From NCBI RefSeq assembly GCF_003334815.1, contig NZ_QOWO01000002.1: DNA of 64,000 nucleotides; one strand, written 5' to 3'. Made by a program: the position numbers and the translations under genes. A model generated the notes under the pieces. That model was not told where the DNA came from, did not search any database, and worked only from the letters and a program-made list of their open reading frames with translations. Below, piece by piece: positions 37,811 to 51,700 of this stretch (positions within the stretch are counted from its first letter, which is position 1; each line of letters starts with the position of its first letter). The stretch is from Escherichia coli. Its GTDB lineage: Bacteria > Pseudomonadota > Gammaproteobacteria > Enterobacterales > Enterobacteriaceae.

Positions 37811-37845
37811 ATAAAAATGCCAGCCGATCGGGCTGGCATTTTGCC
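37811..37845. terminator. Bidirectional intrinsic terminator between macB and cspD
   Basis: Hairpin ATGCCAGCC-GATC-GGGCTGGCAT flanked by A-run upstream and T-run downstream. Confidence 0.65.
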
Positions 37846-37874
37846 TTTAGGATGTACACAATGAGACAGAAGAG

Positions 37875-38099
37875 CTATGCGACTGCCGCTTCTACTTCGA
37901 CGGGCACAATAACACTGGCGTGATTGCCTTTTGGCCCCTGGTGGACATCAAACTGAACGGATTGTCCAGCTTTTAGCGTTCTGTAACCATCCATCTGAAT
38001 GGTGGAATAATGAGCGAAAATATCTTCGCCGCCGCCTTCAGGGCAGATGAAACCAAACCCTTTGGCATTGTTGAACCACTTAACAGTACCCTTTTCCAT
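37875..38099 (-). CDS. cspD: Cold-shock-domain protein CspD (stationary-phase replication inhibitor)
   Basis: 74-aa ORF from ATG 38099 MEKGTVKWFNNAKGFGFI... Confidence 0.9.
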   Translation of the reverse strand: MEKGTVKWFNNAKGFGFICPEGGGEDIFAHYSTIQMDGYRTLKAGQSVQFDVHQGPKGNHASVIVPVEVEAAVA

Positions 38100-38421
38100 G
38101 CTTCGACATCCTTCGCAAATCTTATACAAGTAAGATGGAATAAACCGGGGTCAGAGAGGGGGCTGTTCAAAACCTCGCCAACTCTAGAAATACAATTTAG
38201 AGAATTAGGGCGAGCCGTCAAGCATTTGACAGGGGACAAGGGGCAGGTATGAATCAAAAATTTGAAGCAGTTAACGCTATTGACAGGAATGTGACAGATG
38301 TCGCTGATGCCAACGATAGATGATAGTTATCTATCATGTGGAGTAGATTGGTCAGGCAAATAAGCTCTTGTCAGCGGCAGGGCGTTCTGCCGATAACCGT
38401 AACCGAAGATGATAACTGACA

Positions 38422-38772: not shown

Positions 38773-41049
38773 ATGCTCAATCAAGAACTGGAACTCAGTT
38801 TAAATATGGCTTTCGCCAGAGCGCGCGAGCACCGTCATGAGTTTATGACCGTCGAGCACTTGTTACTGGCGCTGCTCAGTAACCCATCTGCCCGGGAGGC
38901 GCTGGAAGCGTGTTCTGTGGATTTGGTTGCGCTCCGTCAGGAACTGGAAGCCTTTATTGAACAAACCACACCCGTTCTGCCTGCCAGTGAAGAGGAGCGC
39001 GACACACAGCCGACGCTGAGTTTTCAGCGTGTACTGCAACGTGCGGTCTTCCATGTCCAGTCCTCCGGTCGCAATGAGGTTACCGGTGCAAACGTTCTGG
39101 TCGCTATCTTTAGCGAACAGGAGTCGCAGGCGGCATATCTGTTGCGTAAACATGAAGTCAGCCGTCTCGATGTGGTGAACTTTATCTCTCATGGCACGCG
39201 TAAAGACGAGCCGACACAGTCTTCTGATCCTGGCAGCCAGCCAAACAGCGAAGAACAAGCTGGTGGGGAGGAACGTATGGAGAATTTCACGACGAACCTG
39301 AATCAGCTTGCGCGCGTGGGCGGAATCGACCCACTGATTGGTCGTGAGAAGGAGCTGGAGCGTGCTATTCAGGTTCTCTGCCGTCGCCGTAAAAACAACC
39401 CGCTGCTGGTGGGGGAATCTGGTGTCGGTAAAACCGCGATTGCGGAAGGTCTTGCCTGGCGAATTGTTCAGGGCGATGTGCCGGAAGTGATGGCTGACTG
39501 TACGATTTACTCTCTCGATATCGGTTCTCTGTTAGCGGGCACAAAATATCGCGGCGACTTTGAAAAACGTTTTAAAGCGTTGCTCAAGCAGCTGGAGCAG
39601 GACACTAACAGCATCCTGTTTATTGATGAGATCCACACCATTATCGGTGCGGGTGCAGCGTCTGGTGGTCAGGTCGATGCGGCTAACCTAATCAAACCGT
39701 TGCTCTCCAGCGGTAAAATTCGTGTAATTGGTTCGACAACCTATCAGGAGTTCAGCAACATTTTCGAGAAAGACCGTGCTCTGGCGCGTCGCTTCCAGAA
39801 AATTGATATTACTGAACCGTCGATCGAAGAAACTGTTCAAATCATCAATGGCCTGAAACCGAAGTATGAAGCGCACCACGACGTGCGTTATACCGCAAAA
39901 GCGGTGCGTGCGGCGGTAGAGCTGGCGGTGAAATACATTAACGATCGTCATCTGCCGGATAAAGCCATTGATGTTATCGACGAAGCGGGCGCTCGCGCAC
40001 GCCTGATGCCGGTAAGCAAACGCAAGAAAACCGTTAATGTGGCGGATATTGAGTCCGTGGTGGCCCGTATTGCACGCATTCCAGAGAAGAGTGTTTCTCA
40101 GAGTGATCGTGATACCCTGAAAAACCTCGGCGATCGCTTGAAAATGCTGGTCTTCGGTCAGGATAAAGCCATTGAGGCGCTGACTGAAGCCATTAAGATG
40201 GCGCGTGCAGGTTTAGGTCACGAACATAAACCGGTTGGTTCGTTCCTGTTTGCCGGCCCTACCGGGGTCGGGAAAACAGAGGTGACGGTACAGCTTTCGA
40301 AAGCTTTGGGCATTGAGCTTCTGCGCTTTGATATGTCCGAGTATATGGAACGCCATACCGTCAGCCGTCTTATTGGTGCGCCTCCGGGATACGTTGGTTT
40401 TGATCAGGGCGGTTTGCTGACTGATGCGGTCATCAAGCATCCACATGCGGTGCTGCTGCTGGACGAAATCGAGAAAGCGCACCCGGACGTGTTCAATATT
40501 CTGTTGCAGGTGATGGATAACGGTACGCTGACCGATAACAACGGACGCAAAGCAGACTTCCGTAACGTGGTGCTGGTGATGACCACCAACGCCGGGGTAC
40601 GGGAAACTGAGCGCAAATCCATTGGTCTTATCCACCAGGATAACAGCACCGATGCGATGGAAGAGATCAAGAAGATCTTTACACCGGAATTCCGTAACCG
40701 TCTCGACAACATTATCTGGTTTGATCATCTGTCAACCGACGTGATCCATCAGGTGGTGGATAAATTCATCGTCGAGTTGCAGGTTCAGCTGGATCAGAAA
40801 GGTGTTTCTCTGGAAGTGAGCCAGGAAGCGCGTAACTGGCTGGCCGAGAAAGGTTACGACCGGGCAATGGGCGCTCGTCCGATGGCGCGTGTCATCCAGG
40901 ACAACCTGAAAAAACCGCTCGCCAACGAACTGCTGTTTGGTTCGCTGGTGGACGGCGGTCAGGTCACCGTCGCGCTGGATAAAGAGAAAAATGAGCTGAC
41001 TTACGGATTCCAGAGTGCACAAAAGCACAAGGCGGAAGCAGCGCATTAA
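38773..41049 (+). CDS. clpA: ATP-dependent Clp protease ATPase subunit ClpA
   Basis: 758-aa ORF from ATG 38773 ([14 protein letters not shown]...); two AAA+ modules ([16 protein letters not shown]). Confidence 0.95.
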
Positions 41050-41073
41050 TCTGATTGTTAGGTAGGTTGGTCA

Positions 41074-41111
41074 AGTCCGTAATCTCGAAAGAGGTTACGG
41101 ACTTTTTGTTT
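41074..41111 (+). terminator. Intrinsic terminator of clpA
   Basis: Hairpin GTCCGTAA...TTACGGAC followed by TTTTTGTTT. Confidence 0.7.
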
Positions 41112-41261
41112 ATGGGGTGGAGGAGGTTCAGACCCTTTTTTTAATGATGATGGTAAGTTGTTGATAATTAGTGCTGCGGGAAGGTAAGGATAAAAAAGGG
41201 TGCTGCAGGAGAATGGGATGGTTTTGCTTTATTAACAACGGGCTAAACGTGTAGTATTTGA

Positions 41262-41349
41262 GTTCACTGCCGTACAGGCAGCTTAGAAATTCACAGGTAA
41301 CATACTCCACCCGCCCACCATGTTCACTGCCGTACAGACAGATAAAATG
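41262..41349 (+). CRISPR. Orphan type I-F CRISPR remnant: 2 repeats, 1 spacer, no cas genes
   Basis: 28-nt repeat GTTCACTGCCGTACAGGCAGCTTAGAAA (41262-41289), 32-nt spacer TTCACAGGTAACATACTCCACCCGCCCACCAT (41290-41321), degenerate terminal repeat GTTCACTGCCGTACAGACAGATAAAATG (41322-41349). Confidence 0.8.
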
Positions 41350-41350
41350 C

Positions 41351-41380
41351 GAAAAAAAAGCTCGCACTTTCGTACGAGCT
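41351..41380 (-). terminator. Intrinsic terminator downstream of serW
   Basis: On minus strand hairpin AGCTCG...CGAGCT followed by TTTTTTTTC. Confidence 0.65.
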
Positions 41381-41392
41381 CTTCTTTAAATA

Positions 41393-41480
41393 TGGCGGTG
41401 AGGGGGGGATTCGAACCCCCGATACGTTGCCGTATACACACTTTCCAGGCGTGCTCCTTCAGCCACTCGGACACCTCACC
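41393..41480 (-). tRNA. serW: tRNA-Ser (anticodon GGA)
   Basis: Reverse complement GGTGAGGTGTCCGAGTGGCTGAAGGAGCACGCCTGGAAAGTGTGTATACGGCAACGTATCGGGGGTTCGAATCCCCCCCTCACCGCCA; long variable arm, encoded CCA. Confidence 0.95.
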
Positions 41481-41666
41481 AAATTGTTTTGCTACCAAAC
41501 CTCATGGGTGGCAACGGGGCGCTACTATAGGGAGTTGGAGTAAAACGGTCAAGAAGAATTTTAATGATAATTATTGTTTGCTCATACTGTAAACAAGTTG
41601 TGCAGTATATCTACATCGAGACAAGTTACGGACTTATACTTCCAAAGTACTTCATACATATCACAA

Positions 41667-41692
41667 AATAAAAAGGCCGGTTAAACCGACCT
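41667..41692 (-). terminator. Intrinsic terminator of infA
   Basis: On minus strand hairpin GGTCGGTT-TAA-ACCGGCC followed by TTTTTATTTT. Confidence 0.55.
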
Positions 41693-41733
41693 TTTACTCG
41701 TTCTTTCTCTTCGCCCATCAGGCGGTAAAACAA

Positions 41734-41955
<222 letters not shown>

Positions 41956-42236
41956 ATCCTCTGGGGTATCACTACCGTAATTTGAACCGGCAAGATAATG
42001 CCGAAGTTCTGTAAATAAGTAAAGATTTGCGCGCTAAATCGCAACAAACAGGTTCGGCACATTACTCCGAAAACACACGGCTAAGCCGCACCAAAAGCGC
42101 AACGTATAAGGGAGCGGTGAGATAAACGATGGGCGTTACCTGACGCGAAAAATTCCTTATCGGCAGCGGGGTAATGAGCGTAACCAACTCTGCGACCGCA
42201 ATTATAACACTCTGGGGAGAAATGTGCCGAAAACAT

Positions 42237-42941
42237 TCATTCTTGTGGTGAAAACAAGCATCGTGGTACCCAGAAATTATTCGGCAATCGTCCGAGGCGC
42301 ATTTGATTGAGATAATTAAGGTAATCCCGGCGGGGAATTTCGCAGGCACCAAGCGATGCTGTGTGATCGTTAAGGACCTGGCAGTCGATAAGCTTACCGC
42401 CATGACCGATAAATTCCTCACAGAATACCAGAAGCGCCGTTTTAGACGCATTTTCCATCCGGCTGAACATGGACTCGCCACAAAATAGCGTTCCCTGGGC
42501 CACGCCGTACATACCGCCGACAAGCTCATCTTCACGCCAGACTTCAATGGCGTGGGCATGGCCGAGTTCGTGAAGGCGATGGTAGGCTTCGACCACGCCA
42601 CGCGTGATCCAGGTTCCTTCTTCGCGATCGCTGGCACAGCCTTCAATGACCTGACCAAAAGCGTAATTCATCGTGACACGATAGGGCGAGCGTTTATGAA
42701 ATCGCTTCATACTACGGCTGATATGCAGTGATTCTGGCCATAGCACCGCGCGGGGATCGGGCGACCACCAGAGGATGGGGTCGCCTGGAGAAAACTACGG
42801 AAAAATACCACGCTGGTAAGCCATTAACAGGCGCGCAGGGCTAAGATCGCCCCCAAGTGCCAGCAGGCCGTTAGGCTCACGTAATGCGCCTTCCGGGGAA
42901 GGGAAGGCTATTGAATGGCGAGAAAGCTGAACCAGGCGCAT
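42237..42941 (-). pseudogene. aat: Leucyl/phenylalanyl-tRNA-protein transferase (aat) interrupted by in-frame TAG at codon 49
   Basis: From ATG 42941 the frame reads [74 protein letters not shown]...; stop at 42795-42797 where a Trp codon is expected; rest of the 234-codon frame is intact. Confidence 0.8.
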
Positions 42942-42982
42942 GACCGCAAAACTCCACGCAAGTCGGATCGTTCAATAATAGC

Positions 42983-44704
42983 TTACAAACCCTGCTTGAA
43001 CTGGTAATAACGCCCCTGTCTGGCAAGCAGTTCTGCGTGAGTACCTTGCTCAATAATTTGCCCGTTGTCCATCACTATTATTTGTTGGAAACGAGAGAGT
43101 CCGCGAAGTCGATGGGTGACCATTAACACCGTTTTCTCACGCATCATTTCTGCAAGCAATTCAAGGATCTGGCTTTCGGTTGTGGCATCTAAGCCTTCGG
43201 TAGGTTCATCCAGCAACACCAGTGGCGCATCATGTAACAGCGCACGGGCGATAGCCAGACGGCGCAGTTCACCACCGGAGAGCTGGCGTCCGCCTTCACC
43301 TAACCAACTGTTGAGACCTGCATCCTCGAGCAGCTTTTCCAGGCCAACGCGACGCAAGATCTCCGACAGAGCCTCATCACTACTGCCAGGCGAGGCGAGT
43401 AAAAGATTATCACGCAGCGTGGCGCTAAACAGATGCACTCGCTGAGGAACAACGCTGATGGTCTGTCGTAGAGCCGCTTCATTCAGGCTGGCTATGGGGC
43501 TATCGTTAAGCAAAATCTCGCCCTGTTGCGGGTCCCATGCGCGGGTCAGCAGTTGTAACAGTGTTGATTTGCCGCATCCGGTTCGCCCGAGAATCGCTAT
43601 ATGTTCCCCGGCGTTTACCTGAAGAGAAATCCCTTTAAGTGCCTGTTGAGATTGCTCCGGATAAGTGAACTGAACATCCCGTAACGTCAGCGAAACGCGA
43701 TCGGCAACACGAGTTTGGGTATCAGGAAAGGTGACCTCCGGTTTTTGATCCGTTAAGTCAGAGATACGTACGGCAGAGGCAATGACTTGCCCCAGATGCT
43801 GAAATGCACCCGTTACTGGTGCCAGTGCTTCAAACGCGGCTAACGCGCAGAAGACAAACAGGGCAATTAACGCGCCGGGTTGAGCATTGCCGCCAACGCC
43901 GCCAGACGCCATCCACAGCATCAGGATCACCGCTAACGCGCCAATGAGCAGCATTATCGCTTGCGACAATGCGGTCAGTTCAGATTGACGGCGTTGCGCT
44001 TCCAGCCATTGAATTTCTGTATTCTCTAGTTGCGTGCGATAACGATCGCTGGCACCAAAAATGGTCAGCTCAGCTTGCCCTTGCAGCCAGGCCGTCAGTT
44101 GTTGGCGATACTGTCCGCGAAGATGAGTCAGATTTTGCCCGGTGCTTTTTCCCGCACGATAAAACAGCGGTGGCATCAAGAAAAGCGTCAGTAACATAAT
44201 GCCGCCCAGCGTAAAGGCGAGGGTGAAATCAAGGAAACTTAACCCGATTGTCACCACCATAATCACCACAAAAGCGCCCACCAGCGGCGAGATAACGCGC
44301 AGGTAAAGATGATCGAGCGTATCAACATCCGCCACCACGCGATTGAGCAATTCGCCCTGACGATAGCGCGCCAGTCCGGCAGGGGAGAGGGGCAGCAATT
44401 TGCTGAAGGTGTAAATGCGCAGATGCTGCAACACGCGGAAAGTCGCGTCGTGACTTACCAGACGTTCAAAATAGCGCCCGGCAGTACGGGTGATTGCTGC
44501 GCCACGCACGCCCGCAGCGGGTAGCATATAGTTGAAGCTGTACAGTCCGGCAACCCCCGCAACCGCTGAGGCCGAGAGGAACCAGCCGGAAAGTGTCAAC
44601 AGACCGATACTGGCGAGCAGCGTCACAATTGCCAGCACAATACCAAGACTTAACATCCATTTATGACGTTTATACAGTGCCAGATAGGGTAGCAAAGCGC
44701 GCAT
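42983..44704 (-). CDS. cydC: Cysteine/glutathione ABC exporter subunit CydC
   Basis: 573-aa ORF, N-terminal TMD + C-terminal ABC ATPase (GRTGCGKST); abuts cydD stop. Confidence 0.95.
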   Translation of the reverse strand: MRALLPYLALYKRHKWMLSLGIVLAIVTLLASIGLLTLSGWFLSASAVAGVAGLYSFNYMLPAAGVRGAAITRTAGRYFERLVSHDATFRVLQHLRIYTFSKLLPLSPAGLARYRQGELLNRVVADVDTLDHLYLRVISPLVGAFVVIMVVTIGLSFLDFTLAFTLGGIMLLTLFLMPPLFYRAGKSTGQNLTHLRGQYRQQLTAWLQGQAELTIFGASDRYRTQLENTEIQWLEAQRRQSELTALSQAIMLLIGALAVILMLWMASGGVGGNAQPGALIALFVFCALAAFEALAPVTGAFQHLGQVIASAVRISDLTDQKPEVTFPDTQTRVADRVSLTLRDVQFTYPEQSQQALKGISLQVNAGEHIAILGRTGCGKSTLLQLLTRAWDPQQGEILLNDSPIASLNEAALRQTISVVPQRVHLFSATLRDNLLLASPGSSDEALSEILRRVGLEKLLEDAGLNSWLGEGGRQLSGGELRRLAIARALLHDAPLVLLDEPTEGLDATTESQILELLAEMMREKTVLMVTHRLRGLSRFQQIIVMDNGQIIEQGTHAELLARQGRYYQFKQGL

Positions 44705-48732: not shown

Positions 48733-51700
48733 TTGAGCCAGGAATACACTGAAGACAAAGAAGTCACATTGACAAAGTTAAGTAGCGGCCGCCGCCTTCT
48801 GGAGGCGTTGCTGATCCTTATTGTCCTGTTTGCCGTCTGGTTGATGGCTGCCTTACTAAGCTTTAACCCTTCGGACCCCAGCTGGTCGCAAACGGCCTGG
48901 CATGAACCTATCCATAATTTAGGTGGGATGCCCGGTGCGTGGTTGGCAGATACGCTGTTCTTTATTTTTGGCGTGATGGCTTACACCATTCCCGTCATTA
49001 TTGTCGGCGGTTGTTGGTTTGCCTGGCGTCATCAGTCCAGCGACGAATACATTGATTATTTTGCCGTTTCGCTACGCATCATTGGCGTTTTGGCGCTCAT
49101 CCTTACCTCCTGTGGTCTGGCGGCAATCAACGCTGACGATATCTGGTATTTTGCCTCCGGTGGCGTCATTGGCAGCTTACTAAGCACTACGCTACAACCA
49201 CTGCTACACAGTAGCGGGGGAACTATTGCGCTGCTCTGCGTTTGGGCAGCGGGCCTGACGTTGTTCACCGGTTGGTCATGGGTGACCATTGCTGAAAAAC
49301 TCGGCGGCTGGATTTTAAACATTCTCACCTTCGCCAGTAATCGTACCCGTCGCGATGATACCTGGGTCGATGAAGATGAGTATGAAGACGACGAAGAGTA
49401 TGAAGATGAAAATCACGGCAAACAGCATGAATCACGCCGTGCCCGTATTCTTCGCGGCGCGCTAGCGCGTCGTAAACGGTTGGCGGAAAAATTCATTAAT
49501 CCGATGGGGCGGCAAACAGACGCTGCGTTGTTCTCCGGTAAGCGGATGGATGATGACGAAGAGATTACCTACACTGCACGCGGTGTGGCTGCCGACCCGG
49601 ACGACGTCCTATTTTCGGGCAATCGTGCAACGCAGCCAGAATATGACGAATACGATCCATTATTAAACGGTGCGCCAATTACCGAACCTGTCGCTGTAGC
49701 AGCTGCTGCTACCACGGCGACACAAAGCTGGGCTGCGCCGGTTGAACCTGTGACTCAGACGCCGCCTGTTGCCTCTGTTGATGTTCCACCTGCGCAACCT
49801 ACAGTAGCCTGGCAGCCTGTACCGGGTCCACAAACGGGAGAGCCGGTTATTGCTCCTGCACCGGAAGGTTACCCACAGCAGTCACAATATGCGCAGCCTG
49901 CAGTGCAATATAATGAGCCGCTGCAACAACCAGTACAGCCGCAGCAGCCGTATTATGCACCTGCAGCTGAACAACCTGCGCAACAGCCGTATTATGCCCC
50001 TGCGCCAGAACAACCGGTGGCAGGTAACGCCTGGCAAGCCGAAGAGCAGCAATCCACTTTTGCTCCACAGTCTACATACCAGACTGAGCAAACTTATCAG
50101 CAGCCAGCCGCTCAGGAGCCGTTGTACCAACAGCCGCAACCCGTTGAACAGCAGCCTGTTGTGGAGCCTGAACCCGTTGTAGAAGAGACAAAACCCGCGC
50201 GTCCGCCGCTTTACTACTTTGAAGAAGTTGAAGAGAAGCGAGCCCGTGAACGTGAACAACTTGCGGCCTGGTATCAACCGATTCCAGAACCGGTTAAAGA
50301 ACCAGAACCGATCAAATCTTCGCTGAAAGCACCTTCTGTTGCAGCAGTACCTCCAGTAGAAGCCGCTGCCGCTGTTTCCCCGCTGGCATCTGGCGTGAAA
50401 AAAGCGACACTGGCGACGGGGGCTGCCGCAACCGTTGCCGCGCCAGTCTTCAGTCTGGCAAATAGCGGTGGACCGCGTCCTCAGGTCAAAGAGGGGATTG
50501 GTCCGCAGTTGCCACGACCGAAACGTATCCGCGTGCCAACTCGTCGTGAACTGGCGTCTTACGGTATTAAGCTGCCCTCACAGCGTGCGGCGGAAGAAAA
50601 AGCCCGTGAAGCCCAGCGCAATCAGTACGATTCTGGCGATCAGTACAACGATGATGAAATCGATGCGATGCAGCAGGATGAACTGGCACGTCAGTTCGCC
50701 CAGACACAGCAGCAACGCTATGGCGAACAGTATCAACATGATGTGCCCGTAAACGCAGAAGATGCAGATGCTGCGGCAGAGGCTGAACTGGCTCGTCAGT
50801 TTGCGCAAACTCAACAACAACGTTATTCCGGCGAACAACCGGCTGGGGCGAATCCGTTCTCGCTGGATGATTTTGAATTTTCGCCAATGAAAGCGTTGCT
50901 GGATGATGGTCCACACGAACCGTTGTTTACGCCAATTGTTGAACCTGTACAGCAGCCGCAACAACCGGTTGCACCGCAGCAGCAATATCAGCAGCCGCAA
51001 CAACCAGTTCCGCCGCAGCCGCAGTATCAGCAGCCACAACAGCCGGTTGCGCCGCAGCCACAATATCAGCAGCCGCAACAACCGGTTGCGCCACAGCAGC
51101 AATATCAGCAGCCGCAACAACCGGTTGCGCCGCAGCAGCAGTATCAGCAGCCACAACAGCCAGTTGCGCCACAACCGCAGGATACCCTGCTTCATCCGCT
51201 GTTGATGCGTAATGGCGACAGCCGTCCGTTGCATAAACCGACGACGCCGCTGCCTTCTCTGGATTTGCTGACACCGCCGCCGAGCGAAGTGGAGCCGGTA
51301 GATACCTTTGCGCTTGAACAAATGGCTCGCCTGGTGGAAGCGCGTCTGGCTGATTTCCGTATTAAAGCCGATGTCGTCAATTACTCTCCGGGGCCGGTTA
51401 TCACTCGCTTTGAATTGAACCTGGCACCGGGCGTAAAAGCGGCGCGCATTTCTAACTTGTCACGGGACCTTGCCCGTTCACTTTCGACGGTGGCGGTGCG
51501 TGTCGTTGAAGTTATTCCTGGCAAACCCTATGTAGGTCTGGAGTTACCGAATAAAAAACGACAAACCGTTTATCTGCGCGAAGTTTTGGATAACGCCAAA
51601 TTCCGCGATAATCCGTCGCCATTAACCGTGGTGCTGGGTAAAGATATCGCCGGTGAGCCGGTGGTTGCCGATCTGGCGAAAATGCCGCACTTGTTGGTTG

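What the first reader, a model, noticed from the sequence alone, without database searches (positions are those of the whole stretch)
41112..41733. serW tRNA neighbourhood is unoccupied: no integrase, att duplication or island
tRNA-Ser genes are common integration sites, and this locus hosts I-F CRISPR-Cas in other strains. Here the tRNA is flanked only by the CRISPR remnant and infA, and I see no direct repeat of the tRNA 3' end downstream. This implies either a lost or never-acquired cassette, and a clean landing site.
Basis: partly seen in the sequence, partly recalled or inferred. Interest (0 to 1): 0.2.

Follow-up and report, generated by a model that had tools for sequence, protein, structure and literature searches.

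The report
Empty serW site, orphan CRISPR remnant
The stretch between clpA and infA is the ordinary E. coli K-12 arrangement: an intact, unoccupied tRNA-Ser (serW) integration site beside a two-repeat CRISPR leftover whose single spacer matches cas1 of the CRISPR-Cas system found here in other strains, all of which is already described.

Summary
The window is collinear with E. coli K-12 (13 SNPs and 1 indel over 64 kb), and the clpA-infA interval is 100% identical to K-12. serW (tRNA-Ser GGA, 41393-41480, minus strand) is intact. The 14-nt attachment core TGGCGGTGAGGGGG occurs once. There is no integrase or Cas fragment and no island. Positive controls show what occupancy looks like: strain TB354 has a ~43-kb ter/cah island with a P4-type integrase and two extra core copies, and E. 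coli C has three core copies.

The I-F CRISPR-Cas cassette does not use serW as an attachment site. In I-F strains serW lies inside the cassette, with arrays on both sides and no integrase. The remnant's only spacer matches cas1f (30/32, CC PAM). This is the published "anti-cas" orphan array, so the site is not a neutral landing pad for that cassette. For OI-43/SRL-type islands the attB is intact, but their excision is scar-free, so past occupancy cannot be excluded.

Among 5,426 complete genomes, 4,423 have the interval contiguous, 241 carry cas1f, and at least 282 carry an island at serW. About 1,030 carry tRNA-3'/RtT-like duplications, a class that overlaps the other three. The feature is already known and of low interest.

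The parts
38773..41049 (+). clpA (left core-genome flank)
   Evidence: K-12 annotation mapped onto the window (window = L003 + 20699); ORF list
41073..41104 (+). clpA intrinsic terminator hairpin followed by a T run
   Evidence: 14-bp stem
41105..41261 (+). A/T-rich leader of the orphan I-F CRISPR array
   Evidence: About 96% identical to the leader preceding the full array in I-F strain L004 (6541-6931) and in ST131. No sigma-70 consensus match on the + strand in the simple scan
41262..41289 (+). CRISPR repeat 1, canonical type I-F (GTTCACTGCCGTACAGGCAGCTTAGAAA)
   Evidence: Rfam CRISPR-DR4, 50.1 bits against gathering score 35; hairpin -8.6 kcal/mol
41290..41321 (+). Single 32-nt spacer matching cas1f (anti-cas spacer)
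   Evidence: 30/32 identical to L004 7711-7680 inside cas1f, preceded by the CC PAM. 29/32 to a second cas1f allele. tblastn Cas1f residues 33-43
41322..41349 (+). Terminal, degenerate repeat 2 (GTTCACTGCCGTACAGACAGATAAAATG). A G>A change at 41338 weakens the Cas6f hairpin
   Evidence: Fold -1.4 against -8.6 kcal/mol for the O157/ST131 allele with G
41352..41387 (-). serW intrinsic terminator
   Evidence: 16-bp stem, T8
41393..41480 (-). serW, tRNA-Ser(GGA), intact
   Evidence: annotated tRNA-Ser in K-12
41393..41406 (+). 14-nt attachment core TGGCGGTGAGGGGG (last 14 nt of serW), single copy, so an unoccupied attB
   Evidence: Core derived from the TB354 island junctions. Identical to the published OI-43/OI-48/SRL-PAI direct repeat (PMC3064760). 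Single copy in the window
41524..41552 (-). serW promoter-like site (TTGACC, 17 nt spacer, TATAGT)
   Evidence: 10/12 match; consensus match only, function inferred
41562..41669 (.). 108-nt segment specific to the cas-less haplotype. In I-F strains a 759-nt leader plus second CRISPR array replaces it
   Evidence: Homology breakpoints against L004. No repeat remnant and no significant similarity to the I-F leader/array
41671..41695 (-). infA intrinsic terminator
41734..41952 (-). infA (right core-genome flank)

Best explanation
This is the standard cas-less haplotype of the E. coli clpA-serW-infA locus, called 'CRISPR-III' (array CRISPR4.1-2 in the Mojica nomenclature, CRISPR3 in Touchon and Rocha), as found in K-12. 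serW is a free-standing tRNA gene with its own promoter and terminator. Its last 14 nt form an intact, single-copy attB for the P4-type integrase of the OI-43/OI-48/SRL-PAI island family, and no island is present. Between clpA and serW lies an orphan two-repeat type I-F array with a leader. Its only spacer is derived from cas1f of the I-F system that occupies this locus in about 4% of strains. Without Cas6f and the Csy proteins the array is inert. If an I-F cas operon enters the cell, the crRNA would direct the incoming Csy complex and Cas2/3 against the incoming cas1f. This is the published 'anti-cas' behaviour and is inferred here, not shown. The I-F cassette is exchanged as a whole allele that includes serW, by homologous recombination in clpA and infA, not by att-site integration.
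For: Shown here. The interval is 100% identical to K-12 and the whole window is collinear with K-12. There is one tRNA, one att core, two I-F repeats and no integrase or Cas fragments. The spacer matches cas1f at 30/32 with the CC PAM. The O157:H7 allele is 31/32, and the ST131 allele carries a different single spacer with a 28-nt exact match to cas3f. The two I-F-positive loci examined lack this spacer in their arrays. The I-F locus layout is clpA-array-cas1f..cas6f-serW-leader/array-infA without an integrase, and its serW segment is diverged. Occupied control TB354 has int plus 14-nt direct repeats. From the literature: anti-CRISPR spacers against Cas1/Cas3/Csy2 occur in all strains lacking Ypest (I-F) cas genes (PMC2886076). 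Native orphan arrays interfere with plasmids carrying I-F cas genes (Almendros 2016, as summarised in PMC8616872). The locus is defined in PMC3903273. The 14-bp direct repeat and precise excision of OI-43 at serW are in PMC3064760.
Against: Three features argue against the K-12 allele being an effective guard. The spacer mismatches both cas1f alleles examined at position 4, which is in the seed, and also at position 6. The terminal repeat carries G>A at 41338, which drops the predicted Cas6f hairpin from -8.6 to -1.4 kcal/mol. No promoter consensus was found on the + strand of the leader. Only 64 kb of the genome is visible, so I-F cas genes elsewhere are not formally excluded. Mutual exclusion of spacer and cas genes was checked directly in only two I-F strains.
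Confidence: 0.9

Rival explanations
1. The site was once occupied by an OI-43/SRL-type island that excised by site-specific recombination, restoring a clean serW. On this reading 'unoccupied' is a secondary state.
For: Excision of OI-43 between the 14-bp direct repeats is precise and frequent, about 1.8e-3 per cell, and regenerates an intact serW (PMC3064760). The integrase family is present in 1,268 of 5,426 genomes.
Against: Nothing in the sequence points to it. There is no extra core copy, no RtT-like unit and no island DNA. The clean state is the majority state and is identical across K-12 and other strains. By its nature this hypothesis leaves no trace.
Confidence: 0.08
2. The two-repeat array is only a decaying relic of a lost I-F system and has no present function in this K-12-type allele.
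For: Compared with the O157:H7 allele, the K-12 allele has one more spacer mismatch to cas1f and a stem-breaking G>A in the terminal repeat. There is a seed-position mismatch to both cas1f alleles tested. No promoter consensus was found in the leader.
Against: The exact 88-nt repeat-spacer-repeat is retained in 1,423 genomes, and near-identical versions in 2,338 of 5,426. Independent alleles also carry cas-targeting spacers, such as ST131 against cas3f. The literature reports conservation beyond expectation and experimental interference by native orphan arrays (PMC2886076; PMC8616872).
Confidence: 0.3
3. History variant A: the lineage had I-F cas genes and lost them after acquiring a self-targeting cas1f spacer (proposed by Diez-Villasenor et al. 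2010, as cited in PMC2886076).
For: A cas1f-derived spacer with the correct PAM implies that I-F adaptation took place in a cell holding cas1f DNA. The leader and first repeat are shared with cas-bearing alleles.
Against: No deletion junction can be traced. The sequence after repeat 2 is not homologous to the sequence downstream of cas6f, and the second array is replaced by unrelated DNA rather than truncated. Touchon and Rocha argue that the cas-less form is ancestral and widespread while the cas-bearing form is monophyletic.
Confidence: 0.3
4. History variant B: a cas-less anti-cas array was inherited or transferred as such, and this lineage never held I-F cas genes at this locus (Touchon and Rocha 2010).
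For: The cas-less form is found in most genomes and branches (PMC2886076). The two haplotypes differ by two replacements plus raised divergence around serW, as expected for old alleles exchanged by flank recombination.
Against: It still requires an I-F-bearing donor in which the spacer was acquired. It cannot be separated from variant A using one sequence.
Confidence: 0.5

Closest known systems
Orphan 'anti-cas' type I-F array of E. coli (CRISPR-III locus, CRISPR4.1-2; CRISPR3 of Touchon and Rocha 2010; Almendros et al. 2016)
   Same: Same locus (clpA to tRNA-Ser), same repeat, same leader, a one-spacer array, a spacer matching cas1f with the CC PAM, and no cas genes nearby. The sequence is identical to K-12.
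   Different: Nothing material differs. The K-12-type allele has a weakened terminal-repeat hairpin and one more mismatch than the O157:H7 allele.
OI-43 / OI-48 (tellurite-resistance and adherence island) and SRL-PAI integration at serW/serX
   Same: The target is present: the last 14 nt of serW, TGGCGGTGAGGGGG, identical to the published direct repeat.
   Different: There is no island, no P4-family integrase and no second core copy. This is the empty attB, not an integrated element.
Complete type I-F CRISPR-Cas locus of E. coli (e.g. FDAARGOS_1295, NU14)
   Same: Same chromosomal position, leader and repeat family.
   Different: It lacks cas1f, cas3f, csy1-3 and cas6f and the second leader plus array between serW and infA. 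The serW allele differs by a compensatory T-stem pair.
tyrT-type RtT tandem repeats (tRNA 3' end plus RtT element)
   Same: In E. coli C, Z142-4 and TB354 the serW downstream region carries units of about 178 nt (core copies 177-178 nt apart), each made of the tRNA 3' 19 nt, an RtT-like element and a terminator copy.
   Different: They are absent from the window, where Rfam finds no RtT hit and the core is single-copy.

Membership tests
Orphan type I-F CRISPR array with anti-cas spacer (E. coli CRISPR-III / CRISPR4.1-2) | Two or more type I-F repeats at 60-nt periodicity | tested here: met
   Repeats at 41262 and 41322, 60 nt apart; Rfam CRISPR-DR4, 50.1 bits against gathering score 35
Orphan type I-F CRISPR array with anti-cas spacer (E. 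coli CRISPR-III / CRISPR4.1-2) | Located between clpA and tRNA-Ser/infA with the conserved leader | tested here: met
Orphan type I-F CRISPR array with anti-cas spacer (E. coli CRISPR-III / CRISPR4.1-2) | Spacer matches a cognate I-F cas gene next to the CC PAM | tested here: met
   30/32 match to cas1f with a 5' CC
Orphan type I-F CRISPR array with anti-cas spacer (E. coli CRISPR-III / CRISPR4.1-2) | No I-F cas genes in the genome | tested here: inconclusive
   None in the 64-kb window, and K-12 is known to lack them, but the rest of this genome is not available
Orphan type I-F CRISPR array with anti-cas spacer (E. coli CRISPR-III / CRISPR4.1-2) | Array is transcribed and interferes with incoming I-F cas DNA | not testable with these tools
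   Known only from the literature (PMC8616872 summarising Almendros 2016). The K-12 allele has a weakened terminal hairpin
tRNA-integrated genomic island (OI-43/OI-48/SRL-PAI family) at serW | P4-family tyrosine integrase at one island end | tested here: not met
   tblastn with the TB354 integrase gives a best E of 0.05 (noise); no integrase in the annotation
tRNA-integrated genomic island (OI-43/OI-48/SRL-PAI family) at serW | Flanking 14-bp direct repeats TGGCGGTGAGGGGG (serW plus cryptic ser'W) | tested here: not met
   One copy only. The TB354 control has the repeats
tRNA-integrated genomic island (OI-43/OI-48/SRL-PAI family) at serW | Block of accessory genes between clpA and serW | tested here: not met
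   The spacer is 343 nt and identical to K-12
Complete type I-F CRISPR-Cas system | cas1f, cas3f, csy1-3 and cas6f operon | tested here: not met
Unoccupied attB of the serW/serX island integrase | Intact tRNA with a single, unaltered 14-nt core | tested here: met
   core as in PMC3064760
Unoccupied attB of the serW/serX island integrase | Competence for integration | not testable with these tools
   Requires an integration assay

The most novel reading that the evidence does not exclude
The K-12-type allele of the orphan array, shared exactly by 1,423 complete genomes, may have lost its guard function. A stem-breaking G>A in the terminal repeat and a second mismatch to cas1f distinguish it from the O157:H7 allele. 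If so, these lineages would be permissive for re-acquiring type I-F CRISPR-Cas, and the anti-cas array would be decaying rather than selected in phylogroup A.
Probability: 0.25. Interest if true: 0.2.

Novelty: already known. Interest (0 to 1): 0.08.

Why it matters
It matters little beyond correct annotation. It documents that this genome has the empty serW attB, which is useful for placing OI-43/SRL-type islands or attB-based constructs. It also shows that the 'CRISPR remnant' is the described anti-cas1 orphan array, which could hinder introducing E. coli I-F cas genes into this background. The population counts give a current picture of how the locus is used: about 4% I-F, at least 5% islands and about 19% tRNA-3'/RtT duplications.

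Tried and rejected
(1) Short direct repeats flank the array-plus-serW module: D15 (41085-41104 vs 41616-41635, 17/20) and D10 (41139-41166 vs 41559-41586, 71%). They are not collinear and do not lie at the homology breakpoints with the I-F haplotype. Matches of this quality are expected a few times in 11 kb. I treated them as chance and could not exclude an ancient duplication of half the clpA terminator.

(2) I searched for a relic of the second I-F array or leader between serW and infA. The best repeat match was 14/28, no better than shuffles, and the local alignment to the I-F leader/array scored 25 against a shuffle maximum of 30. Nothing is there.

(3) I tried to trace a cas deletion junction by comparing the sequence after repeat 2 with the sequence downstream of cas6f. 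No convincing homology was found.

(4) The first count of RtT-type units was confounded by the similar units downstream of serX. I replaced it with a junction-specific query.

(5) The Almendros 2016 Nature Microbiology paper is not in the library. Its content is cited only through the review PMC8616872.

(6) Weak Rfam hits overlapping serW (sX4, Thr_leader, plastid psbI-rps4) are far below their gathering scores and were dismissed.

Full report
**What is at the coordinates**

The window is E. coli K-12-like. It aligns end to end with K-12 strain BZKR3G40 from mdfA to ycaM, with 13 substitutions and one 1-nt indel. The segment 40700-42100 is 100% identical to K-12 and to several other strains.

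The reported interval 41112-41733 is the clpA-infA intergenic region. It contains the following elements, in order:
- the clpA stop at 41049 and the clpA terminator at 41073-41104;
- an A/T-rich CRISPR leader;
- a canonical type I-F repeat at 41262-41289 (Rfam CRISPR-DR4, 50.1 bits);
- a 32-nt spacer at 41290-41321;
- a degenerate terminal repeat at 41322-41349;
- the serW terminator at 41387-41352 on the minus strand;
- serW, tRNA-Ser(GGA), at 41480-41393 on the minus strand;
- a promoter-like site at 41552-41524;
- the infA terminator at 41695-41671, then infA at 41952-41734.

**Checking the negative observation**

Because serW is on the minus strand, its 3' end faces clpA. Anything integrated at the tRNA 3' end would lie between serW and clpA, which is where the CRISPR remnant sits.
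- No tRNA substring longer than 11 nt recurs anywhere in the 64 kb.
- The 19-nt 3' end with up to 3 mismatches occurs once, against 0.01 expected by chance.
- The 14-nt core TGGCGGTGAGGGGG occurs once.
- tblastn with the serW/serX island integrase and with five I-F Cas proteins gives only noise. The one exception is Cas1f residues 33-43 hitting the spacer.
- The K-12 annotation across the whole window lists no integrase or transposase.

Absence of a duplicate is what chance predicts, so I used positive controls. The same 14-mer search finds 3 copies in E. coli C and in Z142-4, and 2+1 copies in TB354.

**What occupancy looks like elsewhere**

I found three kinds of occupied state.

1. Integrase-borne island. 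In TB354 a block of about 43 kb lies between clpA and serW. It carries a tyrosine integrase, IS elements, an autotransporter, the ter cluster, cah and CP4-type toxin-antitoxin genes. Its junctions give the core TGGCGGTGAGGGGG. This is identical to the published 14-bp direct repeats of OI-43 (serW), OI-48 (serX) and the Shigella SRL-PAI. Those islands carry a P4-family integrase and excise precisely, restoring intact serW (PMC3064760).

2. Type I-F CRISPR-Cas. In FDAARGOS_1295 the order is clpA, leader plus array, cas1f, cas3f, csy1, csy2, csy3, cas6f, serW, leader plus second array, infA. serW is therefore inside the CRISPR-Cas locus, and no integrase is present. The serW segment is only 95.7% identical to the window, against 99.8% for infA. 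It carries a compensatory T-stem change that also alters the att core. This matches the published view that the locus is replaced by recombination in conserved flanks (PMC2886076; PMC3903273).

3. Tandem tRNA-3'/RtT-like units. In E. coli C, Z142-4 and TB354, serW is followed by units that repeat every 177-178 nt. Each unit holds the tRNA 3' 19 nt, an RtT-like element and a terminator copy.

**Population frequencies in 5,426 complete RefSeq genomes**

| State or feature | Genomes |
|---|---|
| Interval contiguous with the window's (at least 80% of a 1.4-kb query in one place) | 4,423 (81.5%) |
| cas1f present | 241 (4.4%) |
| Island integrase family present (at serW or serX) | 1,268 |
| Island end joined to the serW-specific flank | 282 (5.2%, lower bound for this island family) |
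| Terminator / tRNA-3' / RtT junction downstream of serW | about 1,030 (19%) |
| Exact or near-exact repeat-spacer-repeat of the window | 2,338 (43%), of which 1,423 identical |

The RtT class overlaps the other classes. These are summary counts from BLAST coverage classes, not a curated per-genome classification. The collection is also biased towards clinical isolates.

**The remnant is the known anti-cas array**

The window's single spacer matches cas1f of the I-F strain at 30/32. The protospacer is preceded by CC, the I-F PAM. A second cas1f allele matches 29/32 with the same PAM. The O157:H7 allele of the spacer is 31/32. ST131 has the same two-repeat array with a different spacer, which has a 28-nt exact match to cas3f.

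Touchon and Rocha (2010) described exactly this: short clpS-tRNASer arrays whose spacers match Cas1, Cas3 or Csy2 in every genome that lacks those cas genes. They proposed these as 'anti-CRISPR'. Almendros et al. (2016) then showed that native orphan arrays interfere with plasmids carrying I-F cas genes (summarised in PMC8616872).

**How it most likely works**

Shown here: an intact single-copy attB, an orphan array with a cas1f-derived spacer and correct PAM, and no cas or integrase genes in the window.

Inferred from the literature: the array is transcribed from its leader and is inert without Cas6f and the Csy proteins. If a cognate I-F operon enters, it is loaded and targets that operon's cas1f, giving interference or priming.

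Caveats specific to this allele:
- There is a mismatch at seed position 4 and another at position 6.
- G>A at 41338 breaks the second base pair of the terminal-repeat hairpin that Cas6f binds. The predicted stability falls from -8.6 to -1.4 kcal/mol.
- No sigma-70 consensus was found on the + strand of the leader.

The K-12-type allele may therefore be a weaker guard than the O157:H7 or ST131 alleles.

The factual statements are right. 'Lost or never-acquired' cannot be settled from one sequence. The cas1f-derived spacer shows that I-F adaptation occurred in an ancestor or donor. However, no deletion junction is traceable, and the second array is replaced rather than truncated. The literature is divided between loss after self-targeting and an ancestral cas-less array.

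'Clean landing site' is right for OI-43/SRL-type islands, with the caveat that scar-free excision makes past occupancy invisible. It is wrong in mechanism for the I-F cassette, which does not use serW as an att site and is the very target of the resident spacer.

**Verdict**

The feature is real, ordinary and already described: the K-12 state of a well-studied polymorphic locus. Interest is low.

Noticed in passing
window 42796 (aat, minus strand, codon 49): aat (leucyl/phenylalanyl-tRNA-protein transferase) carries a premature amber stop, TGG>TAG (W49*), plus S131A at 42551. None of the 5,426 complete E. coli genomes matches 42200-43000 at 100%; the best has 1 mismatch and K-12 strains have 2. 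The gene is probably inactive unless an amber suppressor is present.
   Followed up: partly
window 1-64000: The window differs from K-12 BZKR3G40 by 13 substitutions and one 1-nt indel (6232). Of the 10 in 20700-62100, eight are non-synonymous or nonsense (macA A222T, macB V37I, aat S131A, aat W49*, cydC Q385L, ftsK I6T, rarA A104E) or intergenic. This is more than between typical K-12 lab derivatives. I did not resolve which changes belong to the reference strain.
   Followed up: partly
L001 15691-16045 (E. coli C); L005; L006 26623-26813 (TB354): Downstream of serW these strains carry one or two tandem units repeating every 177-178 nt. Each holds the last 19 nt of the tRNA, an element annotated as RtT sRNA and a copy of the serW terminator, like the tyrT rtT repeats. 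About 1,030 of 5,426 genomes have this junction at serW. Similar units lie at serX in K-12-type genomes.
   Followed up: partly
L004 16041-16128 (serW in I-F strain FDAARGOS_1295): The serW allele linked to the I-F cassette has a compensatory T-stem change (GAGGCGGGG...CCCCGGAT against GAGGGGGGG...CCCCCGAT). As a result the 14-nt island att core has one mismatch and no exact copy exists in that locus. Whether this affects island integration is unknown.
   Followed up: no
L007 691-722 (ST131 strain 2822): The ST131 cas-less allele has the same two-repeat array but a different single spacer, which has a 28-nt exact match inside cas3f of the I-F system. Its terminal repeat keeps an intact hairpin.
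   Followed up: yes
window 41338: G>A in the terminal CRISPR repeat is specific to the K-12/E. coli C/TB354/S43 allele. It disrupts the Cas6f hairpin (-1.4 against -8.6 kcal/mol). The O157:H7 and ST131 alleles have G.
   Followed up: yes
window 41085-41104 and 41616-41635: A 20-nt direct repeat (17/20, sharing GTTACGGACTT) links the 3' half of the clpA terminator to a site between the serW promoter and the infA terminator, so it brackets the leader-array-serW module. It is probably chance, but both copies lie in one 700-nt intergenic region.
   Followed up: partly
window 37811-38204 (minus strand): A sub-threshold Rfam match to the cspA thermoregulator (41.6 bits against gathering score 78) overlaps cspD and its 5' region. 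This is expected paralogue similarity.
   Followed up: no
window 50950-51180 (ftsK): Internal tandem repetition within ftsK: self-matches of about 87-94% offset by 39 and 78 nt. This corresponds to the known repetitive linker region of ftsK.
   Followed up: no
L004 13430-14353: In the I-F strain FDAARGOS_1295, csy2 is annotated as a pseudogene with an internal stop, so that I-F system may itself be defective.
   Followed up: no
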